From a virus, in the IMG/VR virus record IMGVR_UViG_2936984999_000007: DNA of 64,000 nt; one strand, given 5' to 3'. The notes below the pieces were generated by a model, which was not told the DNA's origin, ran no database searches, and saw only the letters and a program-made list of their open reading frames with translations. Of the stretch, positions 2,742 to 30,491 are shown one piece after another. The position numbers were made by a program, and so were the translations under genes. How positions within the stretch are numbered: position 1 is the stretch's first letter; every line of letters starts with the position of its first letter.

Positions 2742-3401
2742 TCATTTCACCTCGCTATTCTTCATGGAGTCTTTCAGAAAATCATTGTGGAGTTCAGGAA
2801 GAACTGGCAGCTGATATCCTTTTGCCGCGAGGATGTTCAGCTTAAAATCTACGAAGTGTTTTTCAATTTCGATTTTCTGGGCAATCTCAGCCGGGGTGAG
2901 TACATCACCGTGTGTATACAGGAATTCCTGTAAAAGTTCCTGATACTTCATCGCCCGGTAAGCTGCAGATGCGTGGGATGGCATATTTGTCTCCAGATGA
3001 ATCCGGTCGGCATTGAATTCGTAATAGCCAATCGGTTTAAGAATATCATCGTCCGACAGAAGCAGTTCGGAAGCAAAGATATTTGCTCGTCTTTCTGCCT
3101 TGGAGTTGTCCAGACTATAAAAATAGGTGTCTTGAAATGCCTGGCCGGAGCTGGCATGCTTCCGGTCAAACAGTGCGTGTCCCAGTTCATGAGCCAGAGC
3201 AGATATACGCTGGGCAGCTGTACAATTCGGATTGATGCCGATATATTCGCAGTTCAGCAGGACGGTATAGTAACCCAGAAGGTCGTGGCAAAAACGGATG
3301 TCTTTCAATTTGATAGCCCGTTGTGAGATGATTTCTTCTGGATTCCGGGTCTTATAGCGGCGAACCACAGCATCGGCGGTATCAATTATGCGTGTGTTCA
3401 A
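2742..3401 (-). CDS. immA: ImmA/IrrE-family zinc metallopeptidase (anti-repressor protease)
   Basis: HEXXH motif (AHELGHALF) and DUF955-like architecture. TTG start with RBS GGAGGAAAGGAG. Lies directly downstream of the XRE repressor in the same operon. Confidence 0.8.
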   Translation of the reverse strand: MNTRIIDTADAVVRRYKTRNPEEIISQRAIKLKDIRFCHDLLGYYTVLLNCEYIGINPNCTAAQRISALAHELGHALFDRKHASSGQAFQDTYFYSLDNSKAERRANIFASELLLSDDDILKPIGYYEFNADRIHLETNMPSHASAAYRAMKYQELLQEFLYTHGDVLTPAEIAQKIEIEKHFVDFKLNILAAKGYQLPVLPELHNDFLKDSMKNSEVK

Positions 3402-3436: not shown

Positions 3437-3946
3437 TTACCGCAGATATTTTTTTGGAGTAAATTTCTTCGCATCAGCTTTTGCATCGAGGAAAAGTGCT
3501 TCCATTTCTTTGATAAATGCCGCTTGATCTTCTTCGGACAGTTCACCGCCTGCAAATAGAGCTGTGGTCTGTTCTTTTATTTTCTTTGCCTGTGCAACAC
3601 CACGGGAGCCATACTTTTTTCGTACATCTGCATAGAAGAGGTCATCGTTGAGTTCTTGCTGGAAAGTGGCCTCATCCATAAAATAATCAGTGGTGACTCC
3701 AAGAGCTGCGGCAATCTTCTGGATTGCATCTACGCTTGGTTCACGCTGGTTGGATTCAATATAGCGGATCGCACGGTCTGACATAGAAGCCCGACGTGCC
3801 AGTTCAGCCATACTCATGTGCTGGGCGGTGCGGAGGGCTTTTATTTTATCTCCGTTGGTTGCGTCAGGAGCCAGAGTAGTGGCGGCTTCTGCCTTGGCAT
3901 CCTGTGTGTTAAGTGGACTGGTTTCAAAGTTTGTTTCTTTTTTCAT
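3437..3946 (-). CDS. immR: XRE-family HTH repressor (ImmR/CI-like)
   Basis: HTH: IKALRTAQHMSMAELARRASMSDRAIRYIESNQREPSVDAIQKIAAALG. Preferred start is the ATG at 3946 (MKKETNF) with RBS GGAGG. The ORF-track start at 4000 has no RBS. Confidence 0.8.
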   Translation of the reverse strand: MKKETNFETSPLNTQDAKAEAATTLAPDATNGDKIKALRTAQHMSMAELARRASMSDRAIRYIESNQREPSVDAIQKIAAALGVTTDYFMDEATFQQELNDDLFYADVRKKYGSRGVAQAKKIKEQTTALFAGGELSEEDQAAFIKEMEALFLDAKADAKKFTPKKYLR

Positions 3947-4025
3947 GTCATGCCTCCATGTGGGATAACCTGTTGTCTGTTGGAGGGAAAGCACCAACAT
4001 TTACAACATAATTTTGTAAAGCTAC

Positions 4026-4113: not shown

Positions 4114-4196
4114 GAGGTGATTTTGGAAGTAATTCGTTGAAATGTATGGTGAAAAGGGTACACTAAAAACATTTCAAAAATTAAATTGGAAATGTA

Positions 4197-4225
4197 TTGA
4201 CTTATACTACGATAGATGATAGTAT
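4197..4225 (+). promoter_or_regulatory. promoter TTGACT-17-TAGTAT in front of the S/M genes, flanked by GAAATGT/ACATTTC half-sites
   Basis: Half-sites at 4140, 4168, 4190, 4237 and 4246. The perfect palindrome ACATTTCAAATGT lies at 4239-4251. Confidence 0.5.
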
Positions 4226-4275
4226 ATGTACATGAAAAACATTTCAAATGTATAAAACGAAATGGCGGTGAAAGT

Positions 4276-4887
4276 ATGAATGTTGAATTTGGAGATTTGA
4301 TGGGAATGAGCATGGTCGGAAGCATCATGTCCAGACTGCAGATAAAAGAGGATGACAGGATAAAGGGAATCAAAGCTGAAAAAGTTACCGTTCTGGTACC
4401 GAAAGCAATTTCTAATGGTAGTGTAAACCATCAAGAGTTGACAGAGTACGAGGTAAAGGAAGGAAGTGGACAATCACGGCTGACTGTTGTCGATGATATT
4501 GTTATAAAGCTGACAACACCTTATAGCTGTGCGCTGATTACGGAAGAAGATGAGGATTTGGTTGTTCCGTCCTATTGTATGATATGCAGAGATTTTGATA
4601 CGCAAGAAGTGGATTTAGACTATCTGGTTGGCTATCTGAATACTGAATATGCACGACAACTTCTTACGGCTGGGGTTGCTGCAACAACCAATTCGATGTT
4701 AAAGCCTAAAGATGTACATCGACTTCCAGTACCAATGCTTCCAATAGAGGAACAGAGATTGCTTGGGAGACTTTATAGGCTGAGTTCTGAGAAACAGTTG
4801 GTGTTGAAGCAGATGCTTACGAATGAAGAAGCGATGGCAGATAATCTTATAACATCAGCGATTTTGGGGGTGATGAAGGATGAATGA
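4276..4887 (+). CDS. type I restriction-modification specificity subunit-like protein (half-HsdS, single TRD)
   Basis: C-terminal conserved HsdS region: LDYLVGYLNTEYARQLL ... LPVPMLPIEEQRLLGRLYRL. The ORF-track start at 4216 lies inside the promoter, so the ATG at 4276 (RBS GGCGGTGAAAGT) is preferred. Confidence 0.6.
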   Translation: MNVEFGDLMGMSMVGSIMSRLQIKEDDRIKGIKAEKVTVLVPKAISNGSVNHQELTEYEVKEGSGQSRLTVVDDIVIKLTTPYSCALITEEDEDLVVPSYCMICRDFDTQEVDLDYLVGYLNTEYARQLLTAGVAATTNSMLKPKDVHRLPVPMLPIEEQRLLGRLYRLSSEKQLVLKQMLTNEEAMADNLITSAILGVMKDE

Positions 4888-11547: not shown

Positions 11548-12132
11548 ATGGCTAACAAGATTTCCAGTGCAACTAAGGTCGTGATTCCGTGCCGTATCTC
11601 TTTTGCAAACATTTTTGAAGCAAAGAGCATCAACGGTGGTGAGGCTAAGTATTCCGTTTCCTGCCTGATCCCGAAGGAGGACAAGAAGACCCTGCTGGCG
11701 ATCCACAAGGCAGTGGAGGCCGCCAAGGAGGATGGCAAGACCCGTAAGTGGGGCGGTAAGATCCCGCCGAACCTGAAGCTGCCTCTGCGTGACGGCGATA
11801 TCGACCGCCCGGACGACGAGAACTACCAGGAGCATTTCTTTGTGAATGCCTCCAGCAAGGATGCACCGCAGGTCGTGGACCGTCATGTCCAGCCTGTGAC
11901 AGACCCGATGATGGTCTACTCCGGCTGCTACTGCAACGTCAGCGTGAACTTCTACGCTTTTAACGCCAACGGCAACCGCGGTGTGGCCGCTGGTTTGGGG
12001 AATGTGCAGTTCGTCAAGGATGGTGACCGTCTGTCCGGCAAGGCATCGGCAGAGTCTGATTTTGACGCGCTGGACGATGAGGATGTTCTGGGCGGCGATG
12101 CCGGTGAGGAACTGCCGGATTACCTTCGCTAA
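11548..12132 (+). CDS. DUF2815 family protein (phage ssDNA-binding-like)
   Basis: Conserved gene order DUF2800-DUF2815-PolA; RBS GGAGGA. Confidence 0.65.
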   Translation: MANKISSATKVVIPCRISFANIFEAKSINGGEAKYSVSCLIPKEDKKTLLAIHKAVEAAKEDGKTRKWGGKIPPNLKLPLRDGDIDRPDDENYQEHFFVNASSKDAPQVVDRHVQPVTDPMMVYSGCYCNVSVNFYAFNANGNRGVAAGLGNVQFVKDGDRLSGKASAESDFDALDDEDVLGGDAGEELPDYLR

Positions 12133-12153: not shown

Positions 12154-12195
12154 GTGCCGGGGGATGCCAGGGTGTCCTCCGGCTTTTTACATCGA
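12154..12195 (+). terminator. hairpin CCGGGGGATGCC ... GTCCTCCGG + CTTTTT
   Basis: Lies between the DUF2815 gene and the polymerase start. This argues against the ORF-track polymerase start at 12154. Confidence 0.4.
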
Positions 12196-12210
12196 ATAGA
12201 GGTGAGATAT

Positions 12211-14208
12211 TTGAAAGAAACGCTGATCGATATTGAGACCTACAGCGAGGTGGATATCGGAAAATGCGGCCTGTACCGCTATGCCACAGATCCAAGCTTT
12301 GAGATCCTGTTGGTAGCCTGGGCTACCGATGAAGGGGATGGTTTTGGCGAGACCAGATGTGCAGATCTTGCATCAGGAGAACCGCTCCCCAAAGAACTGC
12401 TGGAGGATTTCCAGTCTGGAAACGTGCGCCTGATCGCCCATAATGCTTCCTTTGAGCGGGTCTGTTTTTCTGTGCATATGCAAAGACATCTGCCGGGACA
12501 GTATCTGAAACCCGGGGAGTTCCTTTCTCCGGACAGCTGGATCTGTACGATGGTTATGGCGGCATCGCTGACTCTGCCAATGGCCCTAAAGGATGTTGGC
12601 ACTGTGCTGAAGACCAGCCAGCAGAAAGATAAGGAAGGCGAGCGGCTGATCAAGCTGTTTTCCATGCCCTGTAAGCCAACGAAGAGTAATGGGATGCGTA
12701 CCCGGAATCTTCCGGAGCATTACCCTGCAGATTGGGAGAAGTTTAAGTATTACTGCATTCAGGATGTCAACACTGAGGTGGACATTTATAAGAGGCTGAA
12801 GAAATTCCCGATGCCGGAGCAGGAATGGAAACATTACCGGGTCAATGAACGTATCAATGACCGGGGCGTAAAGATCGACACGGAGCTGGTGCAGCAGGCC
12901 ATTGCCTGTGATCTGATGCTCTCGGACGCCATGAGTAAGAAAGCCTACGAACTGACAGGGCTTGAGAATCCCAACTCTGTGTCACAGCTGAAGTCATGGC
13001 TGGATGAGCGTGGCATTCCGATGGACACGCTCGGAAAAAAGGATGTAGCACAGATGATCAATGAACTGGACAAAAACGGAGTGGATGCTGAGGCAATGGA
13101 TATGCTGAAGCTCCGGCTTCAGATGGCGAAAAGTTCTGTGAAGAAATACCAGGCGGCAGAACGCTGTGTCTGCTCAGATGGCAGAGCCAGAGGGCTGTTC
13201 CAGTTCTATGGGGCCAGCCGCACAGGTCGGTATTCCGGCCGGAATATCCAGTTGCAGAATCTGCCGCAGAACCATATTTCCACGCTGGATGAGGCGAGGG
13301 AACTGGTGAAGCTGGGGTGCTTTGATATGGTCGAGACCATCTACGGAAACACCCCGGATGTGCTCTCTCAGTTGATCCGAACCATGCTGATTCCAAAAGA
13401 AGGCTGTGAGTTTATCGTGGCTGACTTCTCTGCCATCGAAGCCCGTGTGCTTGCATGGGAAGCCGGAGAGGACTGGCGGCTGGAAGCCTTTCTGGAAGGG
13501 AAGGACATCTACTGTGCCTCTGCCAGCCAGATGTTCCATGTGCCGGTGGTGAAGCACGGCATCAACGGGGAACTTCGGCAGAAAGGAAAGGTGGCAGAGC
13601 TGGCCTGCGGCTATGGCGGTTCTTCCGGCGCACTCATCAGTATGGGTGCTCTGCAGATGGGTCTGAAAGAAGAGGAACTGCCGGAGATCATCGATTCTTG
13701 GCGGGAAGCCAATCCGAAGATCGTCCAGTATTGGTGGGATGTGGAAAAGGCGGCAACGCAGGCATTCAAGACTGGAAAGCGACAGGAGATCGGCAAGCTG
13801 GCGTTCGAGTTTTATTCCGGTACGCTTTGGATGCTGCTTCCTTCTGGAAGAAAGCTGGCGTATCTGAAGCCGAGATTGCAGCCGAACCGCTTCGGAAGGA
13901 TGAGCCTGACCTATGAAGGAGTGGGACAGAACCACAAATGGGCCAGACAGGAAACCTACTCCGGCCGGCTGGTGGAGAATGCGACACAGGCGATTGCCCG
14001 TGATATTCTGGCAGAAGCAATGGCCCGTATGGAAGGCTATGGCCTGAATATCGTAGGTCACGTTCACGATGAAGTCATCATAGAAGCGTCCAAGGATCGA
14101 TACACAGTGGATGAGGTCTGCAAGCTGATGTCCGTTAACCCGGAGTGGTGCAAAGACCTTCCTCTGAATGCTGCCGGATATAAGGGCAGCTACTACTTTA
14201 AGGATTAA
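12211..14208 (+). CDS. DNA polymerase I family A (phage-type, with 3'-5' exonuclease), TTG start
   Basis: LIDIETYS exonuclease motif. Polymerase motifs DFSAIEARVLAWEAGE, RQKGKVAELACGYGG, HVHDEVIIE. RBS GAGGTGAG before the TTG. Confidence 0.85.
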   Translation: MKETLIDIETYSEVDIGKCGLYRYATDPSFEILLVAWATDEGDGFGETRCADLASGEPLPKELLEDFQSGNVRLIAHNASFERVCFSVHMQRHLPGQYLKPGEFLSPDSWICTMVMAASLTLPMALKDVGTVLKTSQQKDKEGERLIKLFSMPCKPTKSNGMRTRNLPEHYPADWEKFKYYCIQDVNTEVDIYKRLKKFPMPEQEWKHYRVNERINDRGVKIDTELVQQAIACDLMLSDAMSKKAYELTGLENPNSVSQLKSWLDERGIPMDTLGKKDVAQMINELDKNGVDAEAMDMLKLRLQMAKSSVKKYQAAERCVCSDGRARGLFQFYGASRTGRYSGRNIQLQNLPQNHISTLDEARELVKLGCFDMVETIYGNTPDVLSQLIRTMLIPKEGCEFIVADFSAIEARVLAWEAGEDWRLEAFLEGKDIYCASASQMFHVPVVKHGINGELRQKGKVAELACGYGGSSGALISMGALQMGLKEEELPEIIDSWREANPKIVQYWWDVEKAATQAFKTGKRQEIGKLAFEFYSGTLWMLLPSGRKLAYLKPRLQPNRFGRMSLTYEGVGQNHKWARQETYSGRLVENATQAIARDILAEAMARMEGYGLNIVGHVHDEVIIEASKDRYTVDEVCKLMSVNPEWCKDLPLNAAGYKGSYYFKD

Positions 14209-20040: not shown

Positions 20041-20610
20041 ATGGGACGAAAGAAAAGTAATGCCAGGCCGATAGAGCGCGGCCGCAAGATCCATGTCAAT
20101 AAATACATCAACCAGCGTGGAAAAACAAAGCCGCACCGCAGATCAGAGGCATCCTGTAAACTGACATCGAAAGAACCTCAGTTTTACGAGTTGCCAGCAG
20201 ATCAGTGGCCGGCAACAAAGATACCGAAGCAGTATGAAATCTGGTTTGCAGAATTGGGAAACCATTATGGCACTTCGGTCCAGAGCGGAAACCGTCCGGT
20301 GCTGGTCATCAGCAACGATATGGCAAACCGCAATTCCCCAATCATCACGGTGATCCCGATGAGTTCTAAGCTGAAGAAGCTGGAGCTGCCGGTACACATT
20401 CCGGTCACCGGGAAAGACTGTGAAATGCTCCGGGATGAGTGTCTGGAAGAATCCATTCTGCTGGTGGAGCAGATCACGACCATTGACAAGATGGTTCTGT
20501 GCAACCGGCTCTGCCGTGTGACCTCGGCCAGGAAAAAGCAGGAGATCGAAGCTGCTGTTAAAAAGCAGTTTGCGATGCAGGCTTGTACGGGAAGGGAGGC
20601 GCAGGCATGA
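20041..20610 (+). CDS. MazF/EndoA (PemK-family) endoribonuclease toxin homologue with a ~60 aa basic N-terminal extension
   Basis: Residues ~63-170 align motif-for-motif with B. subtilis EndoA: EIWFAELG ... GNRPVLVISND ... NRNSP ... KLELPVHIPV ... LLVEQITTIDK. RBS GGAGGTGAT. No mazE-like gene adjacent. Confidence 0.75.
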   Translation: MGRKKSNARPIERGRKIHVNKYINQRGKTKPHRRSEASCKLTSKEPQFYELPADQWPATKIPKQYEIWFAELGNHYGTSVQSGNRPVLVISNDMANRNSPIITVIPMSSKLKKLELPVHIPVTGKDCEMLRDECLEESILLVEQITTIDKMVLCNRLCRVTSARKKQEIEAAVKKQFAMQACTGREAQA

Positions 20611-23036
20611 TGGACATCAAGAACATTCCGGGCAAGCTGAAAACGACCTGCAGCTTCTGTGTCTGGAAGTTTGAAAAGCGCAATGGACAGAAAACGAAGA
20701 TGCCGTACAACCCGGCAACGGGAGAACGGGCAAAGATCAATGACCTGCGTACATTTTCGGATTTCAAGAATACCCTCGTCACCTATGCGATGGGTGGTTA
20801 TGACGGAATCGGCATCGCAGTCGGAAACGGCATCGGTGCTTTTGATATCGACCACTGTATCCGGGAGGATGGTACGCTGAACGATACAGCGGATACTGTC
20901 CTTTCCATCTTTCCTACGGCTTACGTGGAAAAATCTCCATCCGGGAAAGGACTGCGAGGTTTCTTCTGTGTGCCGGAAGACTACGTCTACGACAAGACAG
21001 TCTACTACATCAATAACCGCAACAAGGGTCTGGAAGTGTATATGCCCGGTGCGACGAACCGCTTCGTCACCGTAACGGGAGATGTTTACCGCACAGGTGA
21101 GATCCCAAACGATGAAACGGCAATGACAACACTGCTGGACACGCTGATGAAGCGAAACAAGCAGGTGCAGCAGACCCATTTCCAGCACCATTCGTACTTG
21201 GATGATGATGCTGTTATCGCACACGCCAACGAAGCCAGCAACTCGGAAAAGTTTAAAAAACTCTTTGCCGGTGACTGGGAAGACCTCTACGGCAGCCAGT
21301 CGGATGCGGATATGGCATTGCTGTCGATCCTGGCATTCTGGTGTGGCTGCGATGAGGAGCAGATGGATCGCATCTTCCGTACATCGGGCTTGATGCGTGA
21401 TAAGTGGGATCGCAAGCAGGCTGGTTCGACCTATGGTGCGATCTCTATCCGTAACACGGTCAATACCTGTTCGGCTGTCTATATGCCGGTCAATGCGCAG
21501 GACATTGTGGATGAGGAATTTTCCAAGCTGGATGAGGATGATTATATCGAGTTTCAGCCGGATCTCACCAAGATCACGGTCACGCTGGAAGAAATGGCTC
21601 CGCACACAAATGCCCGGTATGGAAGAAATGAGATCGGCATGGGCAATATGTTTGCGGATTATTTCAAGCAGATTGCCCGGTACAACAGTGAGCGTAAAGG
21701 CTGGTATGTCTATGACGGCTCTGTCTGGCGGCCGGACAAAGGCAATCTCAAGGTGTCGGAACTGGCAAAGCTGCTGGCTGACAAGCTGTATGTGTTTGCC
21801 CTGACGATCATCGAAGAAGATGCCAGGAAGCGGTTCATCGACCGTGTCCGAAAGCTGCAACTGCGTAAGAACCGGGAAACGATGCTGAAAGATGCCATGT
21901 CCGTGTATCCGATCTCCATGCAGGCGTTCGACAGGAACAAGTATTTCTTCAACTGCAAAAATGGAACGCTGGATATGCGGACACTGGAATTCAGGGAGCA
22001 TCGGCCGGAGGATTATCTCACAATGGAATCCGGTATTACCTATGACCCAGATGCAGACTGCACACGCTGGCACTCGTTTATCAAGGAAGTCATGTGTGGG
22101 GATGCAGATCTGGCAGACTTCCTTCAGCGTTCTTTGGGATACGCCCTGACAGGAGACACCTCGCAGGAGTGTATGTTTATCCTTTACGGTGCCACTTCCC
22201 GAAATGGAAAAGGTACTGCAATGGAAACATTCCTGAAGATCATGGGCGACTATGGAAAGACATCAAATCCGGATATGCTGGCAGCTAAATTCCGTGGTGG
22301 GAACACAGGCGGACCTTCGGAAGAAGTGGCTCGTCTGGTCGGTTCCAGATTTGTAAATATCTCTGAGCCAGAGAAGAAGATCACATTCAATGCGGCTCTC
22401 GTAAAAAGAATGACCGGCAACGATACCATCAACGCCCGATTCCTAAATGAGAACAGCTTTGATTTTATACCAGTGTTCAAGATTTTTATCAATACGAACT
22501 ACCTGCCCAATGTCAATGATATGACCTTGTTCCAATCCGGCCGACTGAAAATCATACCGTTCAACCGTCACTTTGAAGAGGGAGAACAGGACCAGGGGCT
22601 GAAGGGGCAGTTTGCGAAGCCGGAGAACCTGTCAGGTATTTTCAACTGGTGCTTGGAAGGGTACAAGAAGTATTGTAAGCAGGGGCTTGAAGTTCCAGAT
22701 GCAGTTAAGAGAGCCACAGAGGATTATAAGGATGACTCTGACCGAATTGGGCAGTTCATCGAGGCGTGGATTGAAAAAGACGAGACTTCGGAACTCAGGA
22801 CATCTGCTGCGTACCAGTTGTACGCCAAGTGGTGCGAGGAAAACGGATACTCGTCCGAAAACCAGAAAAACTTCAAAAATGCCATCGGTGTGCATTTCAA
22901 AATAACGAGAAAACGTCCAAAAGACGGCGGTGGTCAAACAACGATGATTCTTGGTTGTCGATTCCGTGATGTTCAAGAAGGAGCAGAAGATTCAACCGTT
23001 CAGGATGCTTATAAACCAAAGGATGTGCTCCTTTGA
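20607..23036 (+). CDS. primase-polymerase / VirE-family primase with D5-like P-loop NTPase domain
   Basis: N-terminal prim-pol domain plus C-terminal P-loop (ILYGATSRNGKGTAMETFLK). Overlaps the mazF stop by 4 nt. Confidence 0.8.
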   Translation: MMDIKNIPGKLKTTCSFCVWKFEKRNGQKTKMPYNPATGERAKINDLRTFSDFKNTLVTYAMGGYDGIGIAVGNGIGAFDIDHCIREDGTLNDTADTVLSIFPTAYVEKSPSGKGLRGFFCVPEDYVYDKTVYYINNRNKGLEVYMPGATNRFVTVTGDVYRTGEIPNDETAMTTLLDTLMKRNKQVQQTHFQHHSYLDDDAVIAHANEASNSEKFKKLFAGDWEDLYGSQSDADMALLSILAFWCGCDEEQMDRIFRTSGLMRDKWDRKQAGSTYGAISIRNTVNTCSAVYMPVNAQDIVDEEFSKLDEDDYIEFQPDLTKITVTLEEMAPHTNARYGRNEIGMGNMFADYFKQIARYNSERKGWYVYDGSVWRPDKGNLKVSELAKLLADKLYVFALTIIEEDARKRFIDRVRKLQLRKNRETMLKDAMSVYPISMQAFDRNKYFFNCKNGTLDMRTLEFREHRPEDYLTMESGITYDPDADCTRWHSFIKEVMCGDADLADFLQRSLGYALTGDTSQECMFILYGATSRNGKGTAMETFLKIMGDYGKTSNPDMLAAKFRGGNTGGPSEEVARLVGSRFVNISEPEKKITFNAALVKRMTGNDTINARFLNENSFDFIPVFKIFINTNYLPNVNDMTLFQSGRLKIIPFNRHFEEGEQDQGLKGQFAKPENLSGIFNWCLEGYKKYCKQGLEVPDAVKRATEDYKDDSDRIGQFIEAWIEKDETSELRTSAAYQLYAKWCEENGYSSENQKNFKNAIGVHFKITRKRPKDGGGQTTMILGCRFRDVQEGAEDSTVQDAYKPKDVLL

Positions 23037-23045
23037 AGTGAAAAA

Positions 23046-23151
23046 CTGTAGCAGGTAGCAATTTGTAGCCTGATTTTCATATCCCTTTTTATTATTACTT
23101 TCTTTTATAGACTTCTATATGAAAAAGTATCTACAACCTGCTACTTGCTAC
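23046..23151. repeat. iteron-like element: 3 direct plus 3 inverted GTAGCA hexamers flanking a 57 bp AT-rich core (candidate origin or terminator)
   Basis: tGTAGCAgGTAGCAatttGTAGCc ... AT-rich ... cTACAAccTGCTACtTGCTACaaaaaaaa. Immediately 3' of the primase gene. Confidence 0.45.
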
Positions 23152-23338
23152 AAAAAAAACAAATAAGAGAATCCGAGGTCTGCTTTTTATCTTGGCGGCC
23201 CAATTTTTGAGAAATCCATTTTGTGAGATATAAATTTTGAGTTTCACCTGAAACAGAGCAGGCAACCTTTGTGGGAGCCTATTTGTGGGCATGGGCAAAG
23301 GCGGCCTGCTTTGTGATACAAGAAAGAGAGGACAGAAC

Positions 23339-24406
23339 ATGAGTAAGATTATCACCTGTGAACAGGTCAGCAACGGCCATCCTGATAAGATCTGTGACCA
23401 GATCGCAGATGCCATTGTGACCGACATTCTTCAGCATGACAAGCACGCCCGCGTGGCGATTGAGTGTCTGCTGAAAAAGAGCCAGCTCTTTATTGCTGGC
23501 GAAGTCACTACCGATTACCGCCCAAACTACAACCAGATCGTACACGATGTGTTCAATCGTATCGGTGCCGAAAAGCTGGGCTGGAACCTGACCGAGCTTC
23601 TTCGCATCGGCATTCTGGTGGACAAGCAGTCCCCGGACATTGCACTGGGTGTGGATAAGGGCGGTGCCGGTGACCAGGGAATCATGTATGGCTATGCCAC
23701 CAACGAGACGGCAGAGCAGATGCCGATTCCCTACATGGTCGCCACCAAGTTCCTGCAGCTTCTCAAGGCACATCCGTCTAAGATGTTCCGTGCAGATGCC
23801 AAGGCGCAGGTCAGCTACGATTACGACACCGGACGCATCACCACATTCCTCTGCTCTGTGCAGCACAGCCCAGATGTGGAGGTCAGCGACTTCCGGCACA
23901 TCATCGAATCCATGATGGTGCTTGCCGCCTGCGAGTATGGTCTGGACGGTGACTTCACGAAGCTGGTCAATCCGACCGGCCGTTTCGTTCTGGGCGGCAG
24001 CTACGCCGACTGTGGTGTGACTGGTCGGAAGCTGGCGTGCGATACCTACGGCGGCATTGGTCGCATGGGTGGCGGTGCTCTGAGCGGTAAAGACCCCACC
24101 AAGGTGGATCGCTCCGCAGCATACATGGCGAGGAAGATTGCCAAGGACATCGTGCAGGCGGGCTACGCTGACAAGTGCGAAGTCCAGCTGGCCTACGCCA
24201 TCGGTGTGGTACAGCCGGTAGGTGTGGCTGTGGAGTGCTTCGGTACTGAGCACCAGTCCCTTGACTTCATCGAAGCCTATGTCCATGACAGCTATGACCT
24301 GACCCCACAGGGTATCATCAAGCGGCTGGGACTGCTGGATGTAGATTACAACAAAGTCAGTGCTTACGGTCATTTCGGTAAGGCTGGTCTTCCGTGGGAG
24401 GACTGA
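23339..24406 (+). CDS. metK: S-adenosylmethionine synthetase (MetK)
   Basis: GHPDKICDQIADAIVTDIL and GAGDQGIMYGYATNET. Full-length alignment to MetK; RBS AGAGAGGA. Confidence 0.85.
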   Translation: MSKIITCEQVSNGHPDKICDQIADAIVTDILQHDKHARVAIECLLKKSQLFIAGEVTTDYRPNYNQIVHDVFNRIGAEKLGWNLTELLRIGILVDKQSPDIALGVDKGGAGDQGIMYGYATNETAEQMPIPYMVATKFLQLLKAHPSKMFRADAKAQVSYDYDTGRITTFLCSVQHSPDVEVSDFRHIIESMMVLAACEYGLDGDFTKLVNPTGRFVLGGSYADCGVTGRKLACDTYGGIGRMGGGALSGKDPTKVDRSAAYMARKIAKDIVQAGYADKCEVQLAYAIGVVQPVGVAVECFGTEHQSLDFIEAYVHDSYDLTPQGIIKRLGLLDVDYNKVSAYGHFGKAGLPWED

Positions 24407-26204: not shown

Positions 26205-27473
26205 ATGAAAGCGACTGCTGAACTAAAGATGCTGCCGGTGTCCGTACTCAAGCCGGCTGCATACAATCCCCGGAAAAAGTTGAAGCCGGGGGATAAAGAG
26301 TACGAGAAAATCAAGAACTCCATCACGGAGTTCGGCTTCGCAGATCCTTTGGTGGTCAATGCAGACATGACGATCATCGGCGGCCATCAGAGACTGACTG
26401 TTGCAATGGAACTGGGATACACAGAAGTGCCTTGTGCGGTGGTGGACATCGACAAGACCAGAGAAAAAGCTCTGAACATCGCACTCAACAAGATTACGGG
26501 TGCATGGGATGATTCTCTGCTGGCGGATCTTTTGAAGGACATCGAGGATTCCGATTTCGATCTCGGAAAGACGGGTTTTGACCCGCCTGAGATTGAGACT
26601 CTGTTCAACAAGGTCCACAGCAAAGAGGTCAAGGAAGATGACTTCGATGTGGAATCCGAGTTGAAGCAGCCATGCTTCTCCAAAGAGGGTGACCTCTGGC
26701 ATCTGGGAAAGCATATCGTTCTGTGCGGTGATTCTACCAAAGCAGAATGCTACAACACCCTGATGGACGGAACCAAGGCAAATCTGGTCCTTTCCGATCC
26801 CCCTTATAACGTGGATGTGGAAGAGACTGCCGGTAAGATCATGAATGACAACATGGGCGATTCGGAATTCTACCAGTTCCTTCTGGCAGCGTTCCAGCAG
26901 ATGCACGACCATCTTGCAGACGACGGTTCCATCTACATCTTCCATGCAGATACGGAAGGGCTGAACTTTAGAAAGGCATTCAAGGATGCCGGGTTCTACC
27001 TGTCCGGGTGCTGTATCTGGAAGAAGAATGCGCTGGTGCTGGGCCGTAGTCCTTACCAGTGGCAGCACGAACCGTGTCTCTACGGCTGGAAGCAGAAGGG
27101 GAAGCACCAGTGGTATTCCGACCGGAAGCAGACGACCATATGGGAGTATGACCGGCCGAAGTCTAACAAGGATCATCCGACCATGAAGCCCATCGGCCTG
27201 ATGAGCTATCCAATCCGCAATTCCACTATGACCAACGGCATCGTCCTCGATCCGTTCCTCGGCAGCGGCTCGACCCTGATCGCCTGTGAGGAGACCGACC
27301 GTGTGTGCCGGGGCATCGAGCTGGACCCGAAGTTCGTGGATGTGATCGTGAAGCGGTACATCGAACACAGCGAAGGTCATTACGATGATGTGTATGTCAT
27401 CCGGGATGGGCAGAAGCTGAAGTTCGAGGAGGTGGCGACCTTCGAGCCGGAAAGCGAGGATGCCGATGCCTGA
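26205..27473 (+). CDS. ParB-like nuclease domain fused to an N6-adenine/N4-cytosine DNA methyltransferase (beta class)
   Basis: ParB N-domain (GGHQRLTVAMELG). Motif IV SDPPYN precedes motif I DPFLGSGST. Confidence 0.8.
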   Translation: MKATAELKMLPVSVLKPAAYNPRKKLKPGDKEYEKIKNSITEFGFADPLVVNADMTIIGGHQRLTVAMELGYTEVPCAVVDIDKTREKALNIALNKITGAWDDSLLADLLKDIEDSDFDLGKTGFDPPEIETLFNKVHSKEVKEDDFDVESELKQPCFSKEGDLWHLGKHIVLCGDSTKAECYNTLMDGTKANLVLSDPPYNVDVEETAGKIMNDNMGDSEFYQFLLAAFQQMHDHLADDGSIYIFHADTEGLNFRKAFKDAGFYLSGCCIWKKNALVLGRSPYQWQHEPCLYGWKQKGKHQWYSDRKQTTIWEYDRPKSNKDHPTMKPIGLMSYPIRNSTMTNGIVLDPFLGSGSTLIACEETDRVCRGIELDPKFVDVIVKRYIEHSEGHYDDVYVIRDGQKLKFEEVATFEPESEDADA

Positions 27474-28239
27474 TGTGAAATGTGTTCTCATTCACGACAA
27501 CTTCCAGAACTTCAAGTCTTATAACATCCCCAAGGCACAGCTGGTGATCGCAGATATTCCGTACAACATCGGTACAGATTTCTACGCCAGCCGGCCGGAC
27601 TGGTATGTGGATGGCGATAACAAAAACGGGGAGAGCAGCAAGGCGAGGAAGGCGGCGTTCAATACCGACTTCACCTTCAACATTGCAGAGTATTTCCACT
27701 TCTGCAACCGCCTGCTGAAGAAAGAACCCGGCACGGGCGAGAAGGATGCGCCGTGCATGATCGTGTTCTGTGCGTTCCAGCAGATCCCGAAGGTGATCAC
27801 CGAAGCAGAGAAATACGGCTTCAAGAATTATATCCCTCTGGTGTTCTGCAAGAACTACAGTCCGCAGGTGCTCAAAGCCAACATGAAGATTGTGGGTGCA
27901 ACAGAGTATGCGCTGGTGCTGTATCGGGGAAAGCTCCCGAAGTTCCGTAATCTCGGTGAGGACGGAAAGCCCCACATGATCTTCAACTGGTTTGACTGGA
28001 AGAGGGATGGCAAGGAATATCCGAAGATCCATCCTTCCCAGAAACCGATCTCTGTGCTGAAACGACTGATCGAGACCTTTACAGATGAGGGCGATGTGGT
28101 CATTGACCCCTGCGCCGGCAGCGGTTCCACGCTGAGAGCAGCAAGAGAACTGGGGCGCAACAGCTACGGATTTGAAGTGTCCAGAGATTTTTACCGGAAA
28201 GCAAATGAGCAGATGCTCGGAGAGGAGGCTTCCGCATGA
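27460..28239 (+). CDS. DNA methyltransferase (amino-MTase, beta class)
   Basis: ADIPYN ... DPCAGSGST. Confidence 0.75.
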   Translation: MPMPDVKCVLIHDNFQNFKSYNIPKAQLVIADIPYNIGTDFYASRPDWYVDGDNKNGESSKARKAAFNTDFTFNIAEYFHFCNRLLKKEPGTGEKDAPCMIVFCAFQQIPKVITEAEKYGFKNYIPLVFCKNYSPQVLKANMKIVGATEYALVLYRGKLPKFRNLGEDGKPHMIFNWFDWKRDGKEYPKIHPSQKPISVLKRLIETFTDEGDVVIDPCAGSGSTLRAARELGRNSYGFEVSRDFYRKANEQMLGEEASA

Positions 28240-30491
28240 GCACAGAACAGAATAAGACTTTGACCCTCGGCAGCCTCTTTGATGGCTCCGGGGGTTTTCC
28301 GTTAGGCGGTCTTCTGACTGGGCAGATCACTCCGCTGTGGAGCAGCGAGATCGAGCCCTTTGCCATCCGGGTCACGACCAAACGTCTACCACAGGTGAAG
28401 CACTACGGAGATGTATCCGTCATCAGCGGCGCAGACCTGCCGCCTGTGGACATCATCACCTTTGGCAGTCCCTGTCAGGATATGTCCATCGCGGGTAAGC
28501 GGGACGGTCTGGATGGTTCACGGTCCAGTCTGTTTTACGAAGCAATCCGAATCGTGAAGGAAATGAGGTGTAAGACCAATGGAGAAAAACCAAGATTTAT
28601 CGTGTGGGAGAATGTGCCAGGGGCCTTCTCCTCAAACAAAGGACAGGACTTCAAAGCAGTCCTCGAAGCCGTCATCGGTGTTAAAGAACCGGCCGCCTCG
28701 GTGCCTGCGCCTGAGAAGAAAGGATGGCCCGACGCTGACTACTACGTGGGAGACGGATGGAGCGTCGCATATCGAGTTCTTGATGCACAATGGTGGGGCG
28801 TTCCCCAAAGACGAAAACGTATCTACCTTGTCGCAGATTTTGCAGGTCAGAGTGCCCCAGAAATATTATTTAACTCCGAGGGCTTGTCTCGGTATTCTGC
28901 GGAGGGCTTCCGTGCGTGGCAAAGAGCTGCCGCCGGTGTTGAAAGCGGCACTGGAGAGGCAGGCTGCAACGGAGCAGGAGGACGGATCTGTCTGAACGAC
29001 CAGGGCGGAGAGCGGATGGATGTGACAGAGGAAGTGACAGCCACCCTCCGTGCGGAGGCACATCATCCCCCGTGTGTTATGGAAGCAGCTGGTTTCTGTA
29101 CCGAGCATTCCGCAAATGCCAGAAGCATCGGATATGAAGAGGAGCGGTCACCGACTCTCCGAGCTGGTGTCGTACCGGCCGCCATCGCACTGGAAAATCA
29201 TCCTGCTGACAGCCGGGTGAAGATTTCCGAGGATGATAAGGTGCAGACACTGACAAGCCGGTGTGGTACGGGTGGCGGTAATGTCCCGATGGTTATGGAT
29301 GCTGTTGAAAATTCAGTGGAAAGCCAGGTGAAAGATGTTGAAAACTCCCCGGCGGTCACGTTAAAGATCCGTTCCGGATGTGAAGGTGGCGGAAAGGGAG
29401 CCATCTGGCAGGAAGAAAAGTCTGCCACTCTTGGCTGCAACAACGACCAGACACTGTTCGTTCCGAAATGCTATGGTGTCTGCTCAAAAGCCAGCCACTC
29501 CATGATGTCCGACAATCCGCACAGCGGTTTTTATGAAGCGGAGACCTCCCGGACACTGGATCGCAGCGGTGGAGACCCGACTTGCAATCAGGGCGGCATC
29601 TGTGTGGTAGAGCCGGTCGCCTTTACTCAGAATCAGAGGGATGAAGTCCGGGATCTGGGAGATAAGTCGGCGGCACTGGCAGCAGAGCCGGGGATGAAGC
29701 AGCAGACATTCGTGGCACAGCCGGAAGATGTGACAGCTTTCCATGTGAACCAGCGCAATGAGCTGATTGACCTGCATGGCAAGTCCGGGGCTTTGATGGC
29801 GACCCGGAGTGATCAGATGCAGACCTTTGTCCTGCAGGGCAACATGATCGGTCGCAAAGATGAGAATGGCCCACAGGGGGATGGTGTCAATGAGGATGTC
29901 TGCTTTACACTGGATGCCACTGACCGCCATGCAGTCTGCGCACCGGAGGATGTGTATGCCATGACCACCGGCTCCTATATGCAGGTGGCAAAAGAAGTCG
30001 CACCGACTCTGATGGCACGGGATTACAAAGACCCGACCACCATCGCACCGGCACCACATCTGAACGAGGGTGTGGCTGGTACTGTGGCGACCGGGGCACA
30101 TCCCAGCGGCTTCAATGGGCAGGATGCTTTCAATGACCGTCTGGTCATCGACAACCCGGAGGCACAGTCCACCCCTGTGACCTACACCGTCCGCCGCCTT
30201 ACACCGACCGAGTGTGCCAGACTGCAGGGCTTCCCGGACTGGTGGTGCAGAGACCTTGGAACGGAGAATCCGACCGAGGAAGAGCTGGCGTTCTGGACAG
30301 ATGTGTTTGAAACGCACCGCAAGATCGTGACCCATGCCAAGAAGCCGAAGACGGAGAAGCAGATCCGGAAATGGCTGGCTGACCCGTATACGGATTCGGC
30401 AGAGTACCGTATCTGGGGTAACGGCATTTGTTTGGCCAACGCATTTTTTGTTCTGGCCGGCATCGCATGGTGTGCAGGTCTGGAAGAATAA
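28236..30491 (+). CDS. DNA cytosine-5 methyltransferase, unusually long (751 aa) with an expanded variable region
   Basis: Motif I FDGSGGF, IV GSPCQDMS, VI ENVPG, VIII QRRKRIY, IX/X RRLTPTECARLQGFPD. About 420 aa between VIII and IX, containing several TL/RDYKDP-type segments and internal repeats. Confidence 0.85.
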   Translation: MSTEQNKTLTLGSLFDGSGGFPLGGLLTGQITPLWSSEIEPFAIRVTTKRLPQVKHYGDVSVISGADLPPVDIITFGSPCQDMSIAGKRDGLDGSRSSLFYEAIRIVKEMRCKTNGEKPRFIVWENVPGAFSSNKGQDFKAVLEAVIGVKEPAASVPAPEKKGWPDADYYVGDGWSVAYRVLDAQWWGVPQRRKRIYLVADFAGQSAPEILFNSEGLSRYSAEGFRAWQRAAAGVESGTGEAGCNGAGGRICLNDQGGERMDVTEEVTATLRAEAHHPPCVMEAAGFCTEHSANARSIGYEEERSPTLRAGVVPAAIALENHPADSRVKISEDDKVQTLTSRCGTGGGNVPMVMDAVENSVESQVKDVENSPAVTLKIRSGCEGGGKGAIWQEEKSATLGCNNDQTLFVPKCYGVCSKASHSMMSDNPHSGFYEAETSRTLDRSGGDPTCNQGGICVVEPVAFTQNQRDEVRDLGDKSAALAAEPGMKQQTFVAQPEDVTAFHVNQRNELIDLHGKSGALMATRSDQMQTFVLQGNMIGRKDENGPQGDGVNEDVCFTLDATDRHAVCAPEDVYAMTTGSYMQVAKEVAPTLMARDYKDPTTIAPAPHLNEGVAGTVATGAHPSGFNGQDAFNDRLVIDNPEAQSTPVTYTVRRLTPTECARLQGFPDWWCRDLGTENPTEEELAFWTDVFETHRKIVTHAKKPKTEKQIRKWLADPYTDSAEYRIWGNGICLANAFFVLAGIAWCAGLEE

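What the first reader, a model, noticed from the sequence alone, without database searches (positions are those of the whole stretch)
23046..23151. Iteron-like GTAGCA hexamer array around an AT-rich core just 3' of the primase gene: candidate replication origin
Three direct GTAGCA copies (23047-23069) and three inverted copies (23131-23150) flank a 57 bp core of roughly 80% AT, followed by A8. As RNA the element could fold into a large hairpin and act as a terminator. However, reiterated short repeats beside a DNA-unwinding element directly downstream of the primase/helicase loader is the standard layout of phage and plasmid origins.
Basis: seen in the sequence. Interest (0 to 1): 0.55.

Follow-up and report, generated by a model that had tools for sequence, protein, structure and literature searches.

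The report
Phage replication origin beside its primase-helicase

Summary
There are two exact GTAGCA copies on each side, not three. The third copy on each side is degenerate (GTAGCC, and GTAGAT in inverted orientation). The copies flank a 58-nt core of 79% AT that starts 10 nt after the stop codon of an 817-aa primase-polymerase/SF3-helicase gene.

This layout (tandem pair, gap, inverted tandem pair) occurs once in the window and in 1 of 200 simulated 64-kb sequences. In 59 of 63 related viral contigs the same layout sits right after the homologous gene, against 1 of 640 control tiles.

The repeat unit differs between lineages (GTAGC, GTGGC, GTTGC, GTAGA, GGGGCA, GTGCA). All copies in both arms change together. 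The unit type tracks the protein's divergent C-terminal domain, which models as a winged helix and aligns to SaPI5 PriRep5 (PDB 7OLA).

Listeria phage PSA, a Staphylococcus phage and an 8.2-kb Clostridium plasmid show the same layout with unrelated units.

This matches the published SaPI origin, and the pRN1 stem-loop origin in position and size. A terminator reading fails: the stem is followed by A8, not a U-tract, the loop is too large, and unit changes are not compensated.

Verdict: a candidate origin, a new member of a known kind. Function has not been tested by experiment.

The parts
20607..23036 (+). Gene for the presumed initiator. [quoted passage not shown] The likely start is ATG 20607, judged from homologues that begin MDIKNIP.
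   Evidence: Pfam gives D5_N 5.9e-30, NrS1-1_pol-like_HBD 1.7e-29 and Pox_D5 1.5e-9. The best solved relative is SaPI5 PriRep5, 7OLA, E 5.6e-45. The C-terminal region aligns to 7OLA residues 631-739 at E 1.1e-5. The AF2 model of the C-terminus has pLDDT 77 and its best Foldseek match is the RFX winged helix.
23047..23060 (+). Left iteron pair, TGTAGCA-GGTAGCA, two exact GTAGCA units 7 nt apart, pointing toward the AT core.
23064..23070 (+). Left third iteron, degenerate (TGTAGCC), 10 nt after the second unit.
   Evidence: A third unit at the same spacing is present in L002, L003, L015 and L021.
23071..23128 (.). AT-rich core, 58 nt and 79% AT, the presumed DNA-unwinding element. It contains a T-rich, strand-asymmetric motif at 23086-23110 (TTTTTATTATTACTTTCTTTTATAG). 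That motif is conserved in lineages that carry different iterons.
   Evidence: for AT content and rank. for the core alignment: the motif is kept in 9 of 11 lineages.
23129..23134 (-). Right third iteron, degenerate (ATCTAC on the + strand, GTAGAT on the - strand).
23139..23152 (-). Right iteron pair, TGCTAC-T-TGCTACA on the + strand (TGTAGCA-AGTAGCA on the - strand). Two exact units 7 nt apart, pointing toward the AT core.
23152..23159 (+). A8 run at the right border. Its length is not conserved (A7 to A9 in 99%-identical relatives). It is probably not a functional part. The A at 23152 also completes the outermost right unit.

Best explanation
The element at 23047-23152 is the phage's origin of replication, of the type used by self-loading primase-helicase initiators such as SaPI Rep/PriRep.

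What the sequence and comparisons show:
- Two to three short repeats (core GTAGC, unit about 7 nt) lie on each side of a 58-nt AT-rich core.
- The two sets point toward each other.
- The layout is conserved across the whole protein family. The repeat sequence switches between lineages, together with the C-terminal domain.

What is inferred by analogy with SaPI Rep proteins and pRN1 ORF904:
- The winged-helix domains of the protein bind the repeats.
- One hexamer assembles on each flank.
- The AT-rich core is melted without a separate loader.
- The primase-polymerase domain lays down the first primers on the exposed strands. The conserved T-rich motif may be the start site.
- The phage's own family-A DNA polymerase (12154-14208) and Gp2.5-like single-strand-binding protein (11548-12132) extend the primers.
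For: 1. The layout is unique in the window and rare by chance: 1 of 200 simulations.
2. The layout is present after the homologous gene in 59 of 63 IMG/VR loci, against 1 of 640 control tiles. The four loci that failed the exact-match test show degenerate units by eye.
3. There are about 15 distinct lineages with at least six unit types: GTAGC, GTGGC, GTTGC, GTAGA, GGGGCA and GTGCA. Each type is repeated within an arm and mirrored in the other arm. The inner gap is 43-55 nt and 67-90% AT.
4. Core unit positions match between arms at 96%, spacer positions at only 62%. Variant units in L015, L042 and L021 are not in hairpin register, and the alifold covariation term is +0.19. So the units are what is conserved, not a stem.
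5. The C-terminal roughly 115 residues are the most divergent part of the protein. They group by iteron type, independently of the ancestry of the N-terminal part. L018 is 98% identical to the window in residues 1-300 but 31% in the C-terminal domain. It shares GTAGA units with L050, whose C-terminal domain is 82% identical to L018's.
6. The C-terminal domain aligns to the PriRep5 C-terminal region and models as a winged helix. NCBI names fragments of it 'primase-like DNA-binding domain'.
7. The published SaPI origin has 6-12 penta- or hexanucleotide iterons immediately downstream of rep and a central AT-rich region. At least two iterons lie on each side in opposite directions, and they are bound by the Rep C-terminal winged helix (PMC9371898).
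8. In pRN1, a 100-bp stem-loop (21-nt stem, 58-nt loop) lies 3' of the prim-pol/SF3/winged-helix gene. With the replication operon it is reported as necessary and sufficient for plasmid replication (PMC4234260).
9. The same layout, with unrelated units, follows the 30%-identical primase genes of Listeria phage PSA (GGTGGATAGTT) and Staphylococcus phage phiSP119-3 (TTGGAAGAG).
10. In the 8.2-kb circular plasmid pCM034-8, this protein is the only recognisable replication protein. It is followed by GGTGTAGGTTAG arrays that include an inverted pair around an AT-rich stretch.
11. No other initiator was found in the window's replication module.
Against: - There is no experimental evidence for this phage: no coverage profile, no binding assay, no replication assay.
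- The link between C-terminal domain and iteron type is confounded by physical adjacency. A recombination block spanning both would give the same pattern under any function.
- The link is not one-to-one. L033 and L035 have C-terminal domains 88% identical but carry GTTGC and GTAGC respectively.
- Only 4 exact plus 2 degenerate units are present, the low end of the SaPI range of 6-12.
- Cumulative GC skew rises steadily through the window with no inflection at the element. With all genes on one strand, this says little either way.
- The repeats could be binding sites for the same protein that serve autoregulation rather than initiation.
Confidence: 0.8

Rival explanations
1. The element is an RNA or single-stranded-DNA hairpin whose stem is the functional unit, for example a transcript-stabilising 3' hairpin or an intrinsic terminator for the replication operon. 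On this reading the repeats are incidental to making a stem.
For: The + strand RNA folds to -36.7 kcal/mol with z = -7.1. The element lies at the 3' end of a long same-strand operon. The consensus fold of eight relatives keeps 25 pairs, 5 of them with double changes.
Against: - No U-tract follows the stem on the + strand. A8 follows in the window, and GAGTTGAGAAG follows in L002.
- The outer stem encloses about 80 nt, far beyond a terminator loop, and the terminator scan reports nothing here.
- The covariation term is +0.19, so there is no net support. Unit variants in L015, L042 and L021 break the pairing.
- Spacers between units match at only 62% against 96% for the units.
- A stem does not need the same unit repeated within each arm, yet every lineage has this.
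- No Rfam family matches. Only generic miRNA-hairpin hits appear, at E above 0.1.
Confidence: 0.06
2. The repeats are operator sites. The primase-helicase (or another phage DNA-binding protein) binds them to regulate transcription of the flanking operons, and replication starts elsewhere.
For: Inverted repeats around an AT-rich stretch are also typical of operators over promoters. The units co-vary with the neighbouring protein's DNA-binding domain. This shows cognate binding, not what the binding achieves. A conserved regulatory-looking block follows at 23200-23338.
Against: - No sigma-70-like promoter is detected inside the core. The nearest candidate is at 23207-23236.
- In SaPIs, the same layout next to the same protein type is the origin.
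- In plasmid pCM034-8, the iteron region downstream of the primase operon is the only obvious origin candidate.
- No alternative origin-like repeat cluster was found in the window.
Confidence: 0.08
3. The element is one copy of the Rfam motif ssNA-helicase (RF03070). That motif's conserved tail, UGUAGCAUGUAGCA, is nearly identical to the window's repeat pair.
For: Both arms give weak RF03070 hits: 18.6 bits at 23139-23185 on the - strand, and 15.2 bits at 23032-23060 on the + strand. The tail matches at 13 of 14 positions.
Against: - The scores are far below the gathering score of 41.5, and the E-values are 0.22-1.3.
- None of 17 related loci reaches the threshold.
- True members (57-73 bits) have a short hairpin with loop TAGTATTAC, one direct repeat pair, no inverted partner and no AT core.
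- They lie upstream of a gene which, in the one member checked (L111), matches Viral_Rep and, below Pfam's cut-off, an SF3-type helicase domain.
- That looks like a rolling-circle origin, a different kind of element.
Confidence: 0.02
4. The element is a chance cluster of a common hexamer in an AT-rich intergenic spacer.
For: The overall GTAGCA count is as expected, 21 against 18. About ten other hexamers reach 4 copies within 110 nt.
Against: The oriented layout occurs in 1 of 200 simulations. It recurs at the same position in 59 of 63 homologous loci, with lineage-specific units, against 1 of 640 control tiles.
Confidence: 0.01

Closest known systems
SaPI (Staphylococcus aureus pathogenicity island) replication origin with Rep / PriRep5 self-loading helicase. 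Sources: Ubeda et al. 2007 and 2012 as summarised in Qiao et al. 2022, PMC9371898; PDB 7OLA.
   Same: - The position is immediately 3' of the initiator gene.
- It has short 5-7 nt iterons and a central AT-rich region.
- At least two iterons lie on each side, in opposite directions.
- The initiator is an SF3 helicase with a C-terminal winged helix. In SaPI5 it is fused to an AEP primase, as here.
- Detectable sequence homology covers the primase domain (E 5.6e-45) and reaches into the C-terminal region (E 1.1e-5).
- Iteron sequence is specific to each element.
   Different: - The host is a Clostridia-type gut phage of about 60 kb with its own family-A polymerase, not a 15-kb satellite island.
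- The unit sequence (GTAGCA) and its 7/10-nt spacing are its own.
- It has only 4 exact plus 2 degenerate units.
- The AT core carries a sequence motif that is conserved across lineages with different iterons. I did not find this described for SaPIs.
- Binding, melting and replication have not been tested here.
pRN1 (Sulfolobus plasmid) origin: a 100-bp stem-loop downstream of orf904 (Berkner et al. 2014, PMC4234260). The authors reported a similar stem-loop 3' of the replication protein gene of phage BIP-1.
   Same: - The replication protein has the same domain order: AEP prim-pol, SF3 helicase, winged helix.
- The origin lies just 3' of its gene.
- The size and shape are almost the same: about 100 nt, with a stem of about 21 nt around a loop of about 58 nt. 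Here the element is 106 nt with a 58-nt core.
   Different: - The pRN1 authors stress the stem-loop and state that pRN1 lacks the iteron structure.
- Here the repeats within each arm are the conserved feature, and the stem is not maintained by compensation.
- pRN1 is archaeal.
Phage P4 ori/crr with the alpha protein. This comparison is from general knowledge and from the discussion in PMC4234260.
   Same: One polypeptide combines primase, SF3 helicase and a C-terminal winged-helix origin-binding domain that recognises short repeated units. NCBI annotates the plasmid homologues as 'phage/plasmid primase, P4 family'.
   Different: The P4 primase is of the bacterial (Toprim) type rather than AEP (PMC4234260). 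From my own knowledge, not checked here: P4 ori is not immediately 3' of the alpha gene, and P4 needs a second site (crr).
Predicted origins of Streptococcus phages, located downstream of the replication module (as stated in PMC13575424).
   Same: The origin is placed in a non-coding stretch at the end of the early replication module.
   Different: I could not read the primary papers, so the repeat structures were not compared.

Membership tests
SaPI-type (Rep/PriRep) iteron origin | Located immediately downstream of the initiator (rep or pri-rep) gene | tested here: met
   The stop codon is at 23034-23036 and the first unit starts at 23047. The position is the same in 59 of 63 homologous loci.
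SaPI-type (Rep/PriRep) iteron origin | Six to twelve short (penta- or hexanucleotide) iterons | tested here: met
   There are 4 exact GTAGCA units plus 2 one-mismatch variants, 6 in all, which is the lower limit.
SaPI-type (Rep/PriRep) iteron origin | AT-rich region near the centre, with at least two iterons on each side pointing in opposite directions | tested here: met
   The core is 58 nt and 79% AT, the second AT-richest 60-mer in the window. The orientation is ++ / --.
SaPI-type (Rep/PriRep) iteron origin | The neighbouring initiator is a helicase with a C-terminal winged-helix DNA-binding domain, homologous to a SaPI Rep | tested here: met
   7OLA (PriRep5) matches at E 5.6e-45 for the full length and E 1.1e-5 for the C-terminal 166 aa. 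The AF2 model has H-S-H-H-S-wing-S topology, and its Foldseek top hit is the RFX winged helix at TM 0.76.
SaPI-type (Rep/PriRep) iteron origin | Iteron sequence is specific to the cognate initiator | tested here: inconclusive
   The unit type follows the C-terminal domain group rather than N-terminal ancestry. But the two are physically adjacent, and L033/L035 (88% identical domains) differ in unit.
SaPI-type (Rep/PriRep) iteron origin | The initiator binds the iterons, melts the AT region, and the pair supports autonomous replication | not testable with these tools
   This needs EMSA or footprinting, permanganate probing and a replication assay.
pRN1-type stem-loop origin | A stem-loop of about 100 nt, 3' of a prim-pol/SF3/winged-helix gene | tested here: met
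   The element is a 106-nt imperfect palindrome. The fold has 14+6+9 paired positions around an AT-rich centre, z = -7.1.
pRN1-type stem-loop origin | Stem integrity is what is conserved or required | tested here: inconclusive
   The covariation term is +0.19. There are uncompensated changes in L015, L042 and L021, and spacers are 62% symmetric. A requirement for the stem cannot be tested here.
Intrinsic (Rho-independent) terminator | G+C-rich stem with a short loop, followed directly by a U-tract | tested here: not met
   A8 follows the stem, and the outer stem encloses about 80 nt. The terminator scan gives no hit here.
Rfam RF03070 ssNA-helicase motif | Score at or above the gathering score of 41.5 bits, with a short hairpin next to a UGUAGCAUGUAGCA tail | tested here: not met
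   The window scores 18.6 and 15.2 bits. Related loci give no hit. True members have a different context.
Lambda-type origin (iterons plus AT-rich region inside the initiator gene) | Origin embedded in the coding sequence of the initiator | tested here: not met
   The element is intergenic. No unit cluster lies inside 20583-23036.

The most novel reading that the evidence does not exclude
The SaPI 'iteron' origin and the pRN1 'stem-loop' origin may be one and the same origin grammar. That grammar would be: inverted pairs of winged-helix sites about 45-55 bp apart, around a polar T-rich core, placed just 3' of the gene. It would be used by AEP-primase/SF3-helicase/winged-helix replicases from archaeal plasmids to a large family of human-gut Clostridia phages.

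Within the gut phages, the C-terminal domain plus origin would behave as a swappable specificity cassette, letting co-resident phages avoid cross-initiation. The conserved core motif TTATTAYTTTCTTTTATA would be the defined start site of the primase-polymerase.
Probability: 0.35. Interest if true: 0.5.

Novelty: new member of a known kind. Interest (0 to 1): 0.3.

Why it matters
It gives a concrete, testable origin for a widespread but uncultured family of human-gut phages. More than 60 related IMG/VR contigs carry the same module.

The lineage-specific repeat units, together with the variable C-terminal domain, form a natural series for working out how this winged helix reads DNA. They would also help in designing compatible phage-derived replicons for gut Clostridia.

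The finding does not change the current picture of replication initiation. The layout and the protein type are already established in SaPIs and in pRN1.

Tried and rejected
1. Rfam. There was no hit at gathering thresholds in the window. Permissive searches gave only generic miRNA-type hairpin matches and weak RF03070 hits.

2. The RF03070 lead. I followed it because its tail, UGUAGCAUGUAGCA, matches the window's repeat pair. A genome-wide pattern scan and an Rfam scan found eight true members in Clostridia. Their context is different, so I dropped the link as coincidence of a 7-nt unit.

3. Terminator and promoter scans. Neither found anything inside the element.

4. GC skew. There is no inflection, but this is uninformative because all genes lie on one strand.

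5. Tandem-repeat and hexamer-cluster scans for a competing origin. Nothing comparable turned up. The only other intergenic cluster is at 4140-4264 and looks like operators.

6. Single-sequence AF2 model of the C-terminus. It was too poor to use, pLDDT 44. I repeated it with an alignment.

7. Primary papers. The SaPI origin papers (PMC1964853, PMC3804134) and the supplement that describes RF03070 are not held. SaPI details are therefore taken from the summary in PMC9371898.

8. A literature search for 'downstream of the primase' origins found nothing.

Full report
**The observation**

The sequence shows exact GTAGCA at 23048 and 23055 on the + strand, and at 23139 and 23146 on the - strand.
- The third copy claimed on each side is a one-mismatch variant: GTAGCC at 23065-23070, and ATCTAC at 23129-23134.
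- Between the variants lie 58 nt of 79% AT. This is the second AT-richest 60-nt stretch of the 64-kb window.
- A8 follows at 23152-23159.
- The element starts 10 nt after the stop codon (23034-23036) of the 817-codon ORF 20583-23036.

The hexamer is not over-represented in the window as a whole: 21 found against 18 expected. Several other hexamers also reach four copies within 110 nt. The oriented layout is another matter. A tandem pair, a 30-120 nt gap, then a tandem pair of the reverse complement occurs only here. It arose in 1 of 200 simulated 64-kb sequences.

The whole element is also an imperfect 36-nt inverted repeat. It folds well as a single strand: -36.7 kcal/mol with z = -7.1 on the + strand, and -35.2 with z = -3.3 on the - strand.

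**Context**

The window is a Clostridia-type gut phage or prophage, with nearly all genes on the + strand. In order, the annotated genes are:
- a sigma-factor-like protein
- a nucleoside deoxyribosyltransferase
- a DUF2800 nuclease
- a Gp2.5-like single-strand-binding protein
- a family-A DNA polymerase
- an SNF2 helicase
- a MazF-like ORF
- the 817-aa protein, followed by the element
- MetK (23339-24406)
- an HNH endonuclease
- three DNA methylases
- the large terminase subunit and the portal protein.

The 817-aa protein carries an NrS-1-type primase-polymerase helix bundle, D5_N, an SF3 helicase region and Pox_D5.
- Its best solved relative is the fused primase-helicase PriRep5 of SaPI5 (7OLA, E 5.6e-45).
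- Its last 166 residues on their own still align to PriRep5 residues 631-739 at E 1.1e-5.
- An AlphaFold model of this part, built on a 26-sequence alignment, has mean pLDDT 77, with above 88 over residues 70-150 of the query. Its topology is helix-strand-helix-helix-strand-wing-strand.
- The model's best Foldseek match is the RFX winged-helix DNA-binding domain (E 3.8e-4, TM 0.76). The AsfvPrimPol C-terminus and the Orc1/Cdc6 winged helix follow.
- No other initiator-like protein was found in the replication module.

**Comparative test**

A scan of IMG/VR with the protein returned 67 loci at 99% to 43% identity.
- Reading the DNA after each stop codon shows the same layout everywhere. Two or three short repeats, an AT-rich gap and the inverted repeats are present, sometimes with extra repeat sets or a duplicated module.
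- By an exact pentamer criterion, the layout is found within 560 nt of the stop codon in 59 of 63 loci.
- The four misses carry visibly degenerate units.
- Only 1 of 640 control tiles from the same loci shows the layout.
- Many loci are near-duplicates. About 15 lineages are distinct.

Across those lineages the inner gap is 43-55 nt and 67-90% AT. The unit differs by lineage:
- GTAGC in the window, L002 and L003
- GTGGC in L021 and L061
- GTTGC in L020, L033, L045 and L047
- GTAGA in L018 and L050
- GGGGCA in L043
- GTGCA in L064.

Within a lineage, every copy in both arms carries the same unit.

**Units or stem?**

Between the two arms, the five core unit positions match at 96% and the spacer positions at 62%.
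- In L015 the variant units are out of hairpin register. The left arm reads GTAGC, GTCGC, GTAGC. The mirrored right arm reads GTCGC, GTAGC, GTAGC.
- L021 and L042 show similar uncompensated changes.
- The consensus fold of eight relatives has a covariation term of +0.19, which is no net support.
- A stem also does not require the same unit to be repeated within an arm.
- On the + strand the stem is followed by A8, not a U-tract. The outer stem encloses about 80 nt. No terminator is called here.

The conserved objects are therefore the repeated units, as expected for protein-binding sites.

**Link to the protein**

The C-terminal roughly 115 residues are by far the most divergent part of the protein. 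For L018, identity to the window is 98-99% over residues 1-300 but only 41% and 24% in the last two bins.

Pairwise matrices show that the type of C-terminal domain goes with the unit type, independently of N-terminal ancestry.
- L018's C-terminal domain is 82% identical to that of L050, and both have GTAGA units.
- L021 has an N-terminal part of the L050/L033 type, but a window-type C-terminal domain (81%) and window-like units.

The caveats are that the domain and the element are adjacent on the DNA, and that L033 and L035 (88% identical domains) differ in their unit.

**Wider reach**

Cultured relatives are only about 30% identical. Even so, the roughly 280-nt gaps after the primase genes of two such phages show direct repeats, an AT-rich stretch and the inverted repeats. 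These are Listeria phage PSA (unit GGTGGATAGTT) and Staphylococcus phage phiSP119-3 (unit TTGGAAGAG).

In the 8.2-kb circular plasmid pCM034-8 of Clostridium estertheticum, a P4-family primase of this type is the only recognisable replication protein. The non-coding region after its operon holds many GGTGTAGGTTAG repeats, including an inverted pair around an AT-rich stretch.

**Comparison with what is known**

Qiao et al. 2022 (PMC9371898) summarise the SaPI origin as follows:
- it lies immediately downstream of rep
- it has six to twelve penta- or hexanucleotide iterons
- it has an AT-rich centre
- it has at least two iterons on each side, pointing in opposite directions
- the iterons are recognised by the winged helix in the Rep C-terminal domain
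- binding and melting occur without ATP and without a loader.

Every feature that can be read from sequence is met here.

Berkner et al. 2014 (PMC4234260) studied a roughly 100-bp stem-loop in pRN1, with a 21-nt stem and a 58-nt loop. It lies 3' of the prim-pol/SF3/winged-helix gene.
- They concluded that the stem-loop, together with the replication operon, is necessary and sufficient for plasmid replication.
- They reported a similar stem-loop 3' of the replication protein gene of phage BIP-1.
- They suggested that replicases with this domain set assemble at such stem-loops.

The present element has almost the same dimensions. It is therefore a new member of a known kind.

**An unreported detail**

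The AT core contains a strand-asymmetric, T-rich motif, TTTTTTATTATTAYTTTCTTTTATA (window 23086-23110). It is kept in 9 of 11 lineages that carry different iterons.

This fits the better-conserved helicase and primase parts of the protein acting on the core, perhaps as the priming site. That reading is inference only.

**A lead that failed**

The permissive Rfam search showed that the orphan motif ssNA-helicase (RF03070) ends in UGUAGCAUGUAGCA. This is nearly the window's repeat pair.
- The window scores only 18.6 and 15.2 bits against a threshold of 41.5.
- Related loci give no hit.
- True members were found by a genome scan. They have a short hairpin with loop TAGTATTAC and a single direct pair, and no inverted partner or AT core.
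- They sit directly upstream of a gene which, in the one member checked (L111), matches Viral_Rep and, below Pfam's cut-off, an SF3-type helicase domain.

I take that to be a rolling-circle origin, a different kind of element, and regard the shared heptamer as coincidence.

**Verdict**

The interpretation as a replication origin is supported by strong comparative evidence and by close analogy with origins proven by experiment. Function in this phage has not been tested.
- Confidence in the origin reading: 0.8.
- Novelty: a new member of a known kind.
- Interest: 0.3.

Noticed in passing
L102 7530-7578; L111 2788-2836; also L085, L103, L107, L110, L126, L144 (Clostridia genome contigs): True members of the orphan Rfam motif ssNA-helicase (RF03070, 57-73 bits) have a hairpin with loop TAGTATTAC, followed by two TGTAGCA repeats. 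From memory, that loop is the circovirus/geminivirus-type nonanucleotide. They lie directly upstream of a gene which, in the one member checked by Pfam (L111), matches Viral_Rep (PF02407) and, below Pfam's cut-off, an SF3-type helicase domain. In L111 an FtsK/SpoIIIE gene comes next. The motif therefore looks like the origin of a rolling-circle element rather than a regulatory RNA.
   Followed up: partly
window 23253-23338: About 85 nt directly upstream of metK is almost invariant across lineages whose primases differ by 25-37%. It is kept whatever gene follows (metK, or another gene in L021 and L044). It forms a long hairpin, GCAGGC...CTTTG / CAAAG...GCCTGC, in which changes are mostly G-U wobbles on the + strand. 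TTTGTGATACATGAAAG and the ribosome-binding site follow. It also contains TTTGTGGG twice. It is a candidate leader RNA, or a promoter for the phage's sigma-like factor. No Rfam family matches.
   Followed up: partly
window 23200-23250: There is a 16-nt tandem repeat, CCAATTTTTGAGAAAT / CCATTTTGTGAGATAT, plus a third TTTTGAG. At the matching place, other lineages carry a palindrome, CCTCAnnTTGTGAGG (L020, L033, L035). It looks like an operator between the origin and the next operon.
   Followed up: no
window 4140-4264: Copies of AAATGT and CATTTC alternate on both strands (5 and 4 copies). They lie in the gap between divergent ORFs 3437-4000 (-) and 4216-4887 (+). This may be the operator region of a lysogeny switch.
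   Followed up: no
window 20583-23036 compared with L018, L021, L050: The primase-helicase gene is mosaic. L018 is 98-99% identical to the window over residues 1-300, but 65-81% in the helicase part and 24-41% in the C-terminal domain. L021 shows the opposite pattern. This points to recombination between the domains of one gene.
   Followed up: yes
window 20041-20610: A 189-aa ORF with a PemK/MazF-like toxin domain (E 1.9e-20) lies just upstream of the primase gene and overlaps its start. No antitoxin was looked for.
   Followed up: no
window 23339-24406 and 26205-30491: The phage encodes its own S-adenosylmethionine synthetase (MetK), placed right after the origin. Three DNA methyltransferases follow a little further on, one of them fused to a ParB N-terminal domain. 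This suggests the phage supplies SAM for heavy self-methylation.
   Followed up: no
L058 7824-7941 (-); L043 7573-7690 (-): Two related phage contigs carry full-length matches (93 and 91 bits) to the Rfam cis-regulatory motif Fusobacteriales-1 (RF02920), about 2.2-2.5 kb downstream of the primase gene. The window itself has no such hit.
   Followed up: no
L061 and L065, about 2798-3060: In these distant relatives (54% identity), the whole module of repeat pair, AT-rich gap and inverted pair is duplicated in tandem about 140 nt apart. This may be a double origin.
   Followed up: no
L192 (plasmid pCM034-8, NZ_CP086153.1) 560-930: The plasmid has seven plus three direct GGTGTAGGTTAG repeats, and further inverted GTGTAGG pairs around an AT-rich stretch. 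They lie downstream of the plasmid's only replication gene. The origin is not annotated in the record's gene table.
   Followed up: partly
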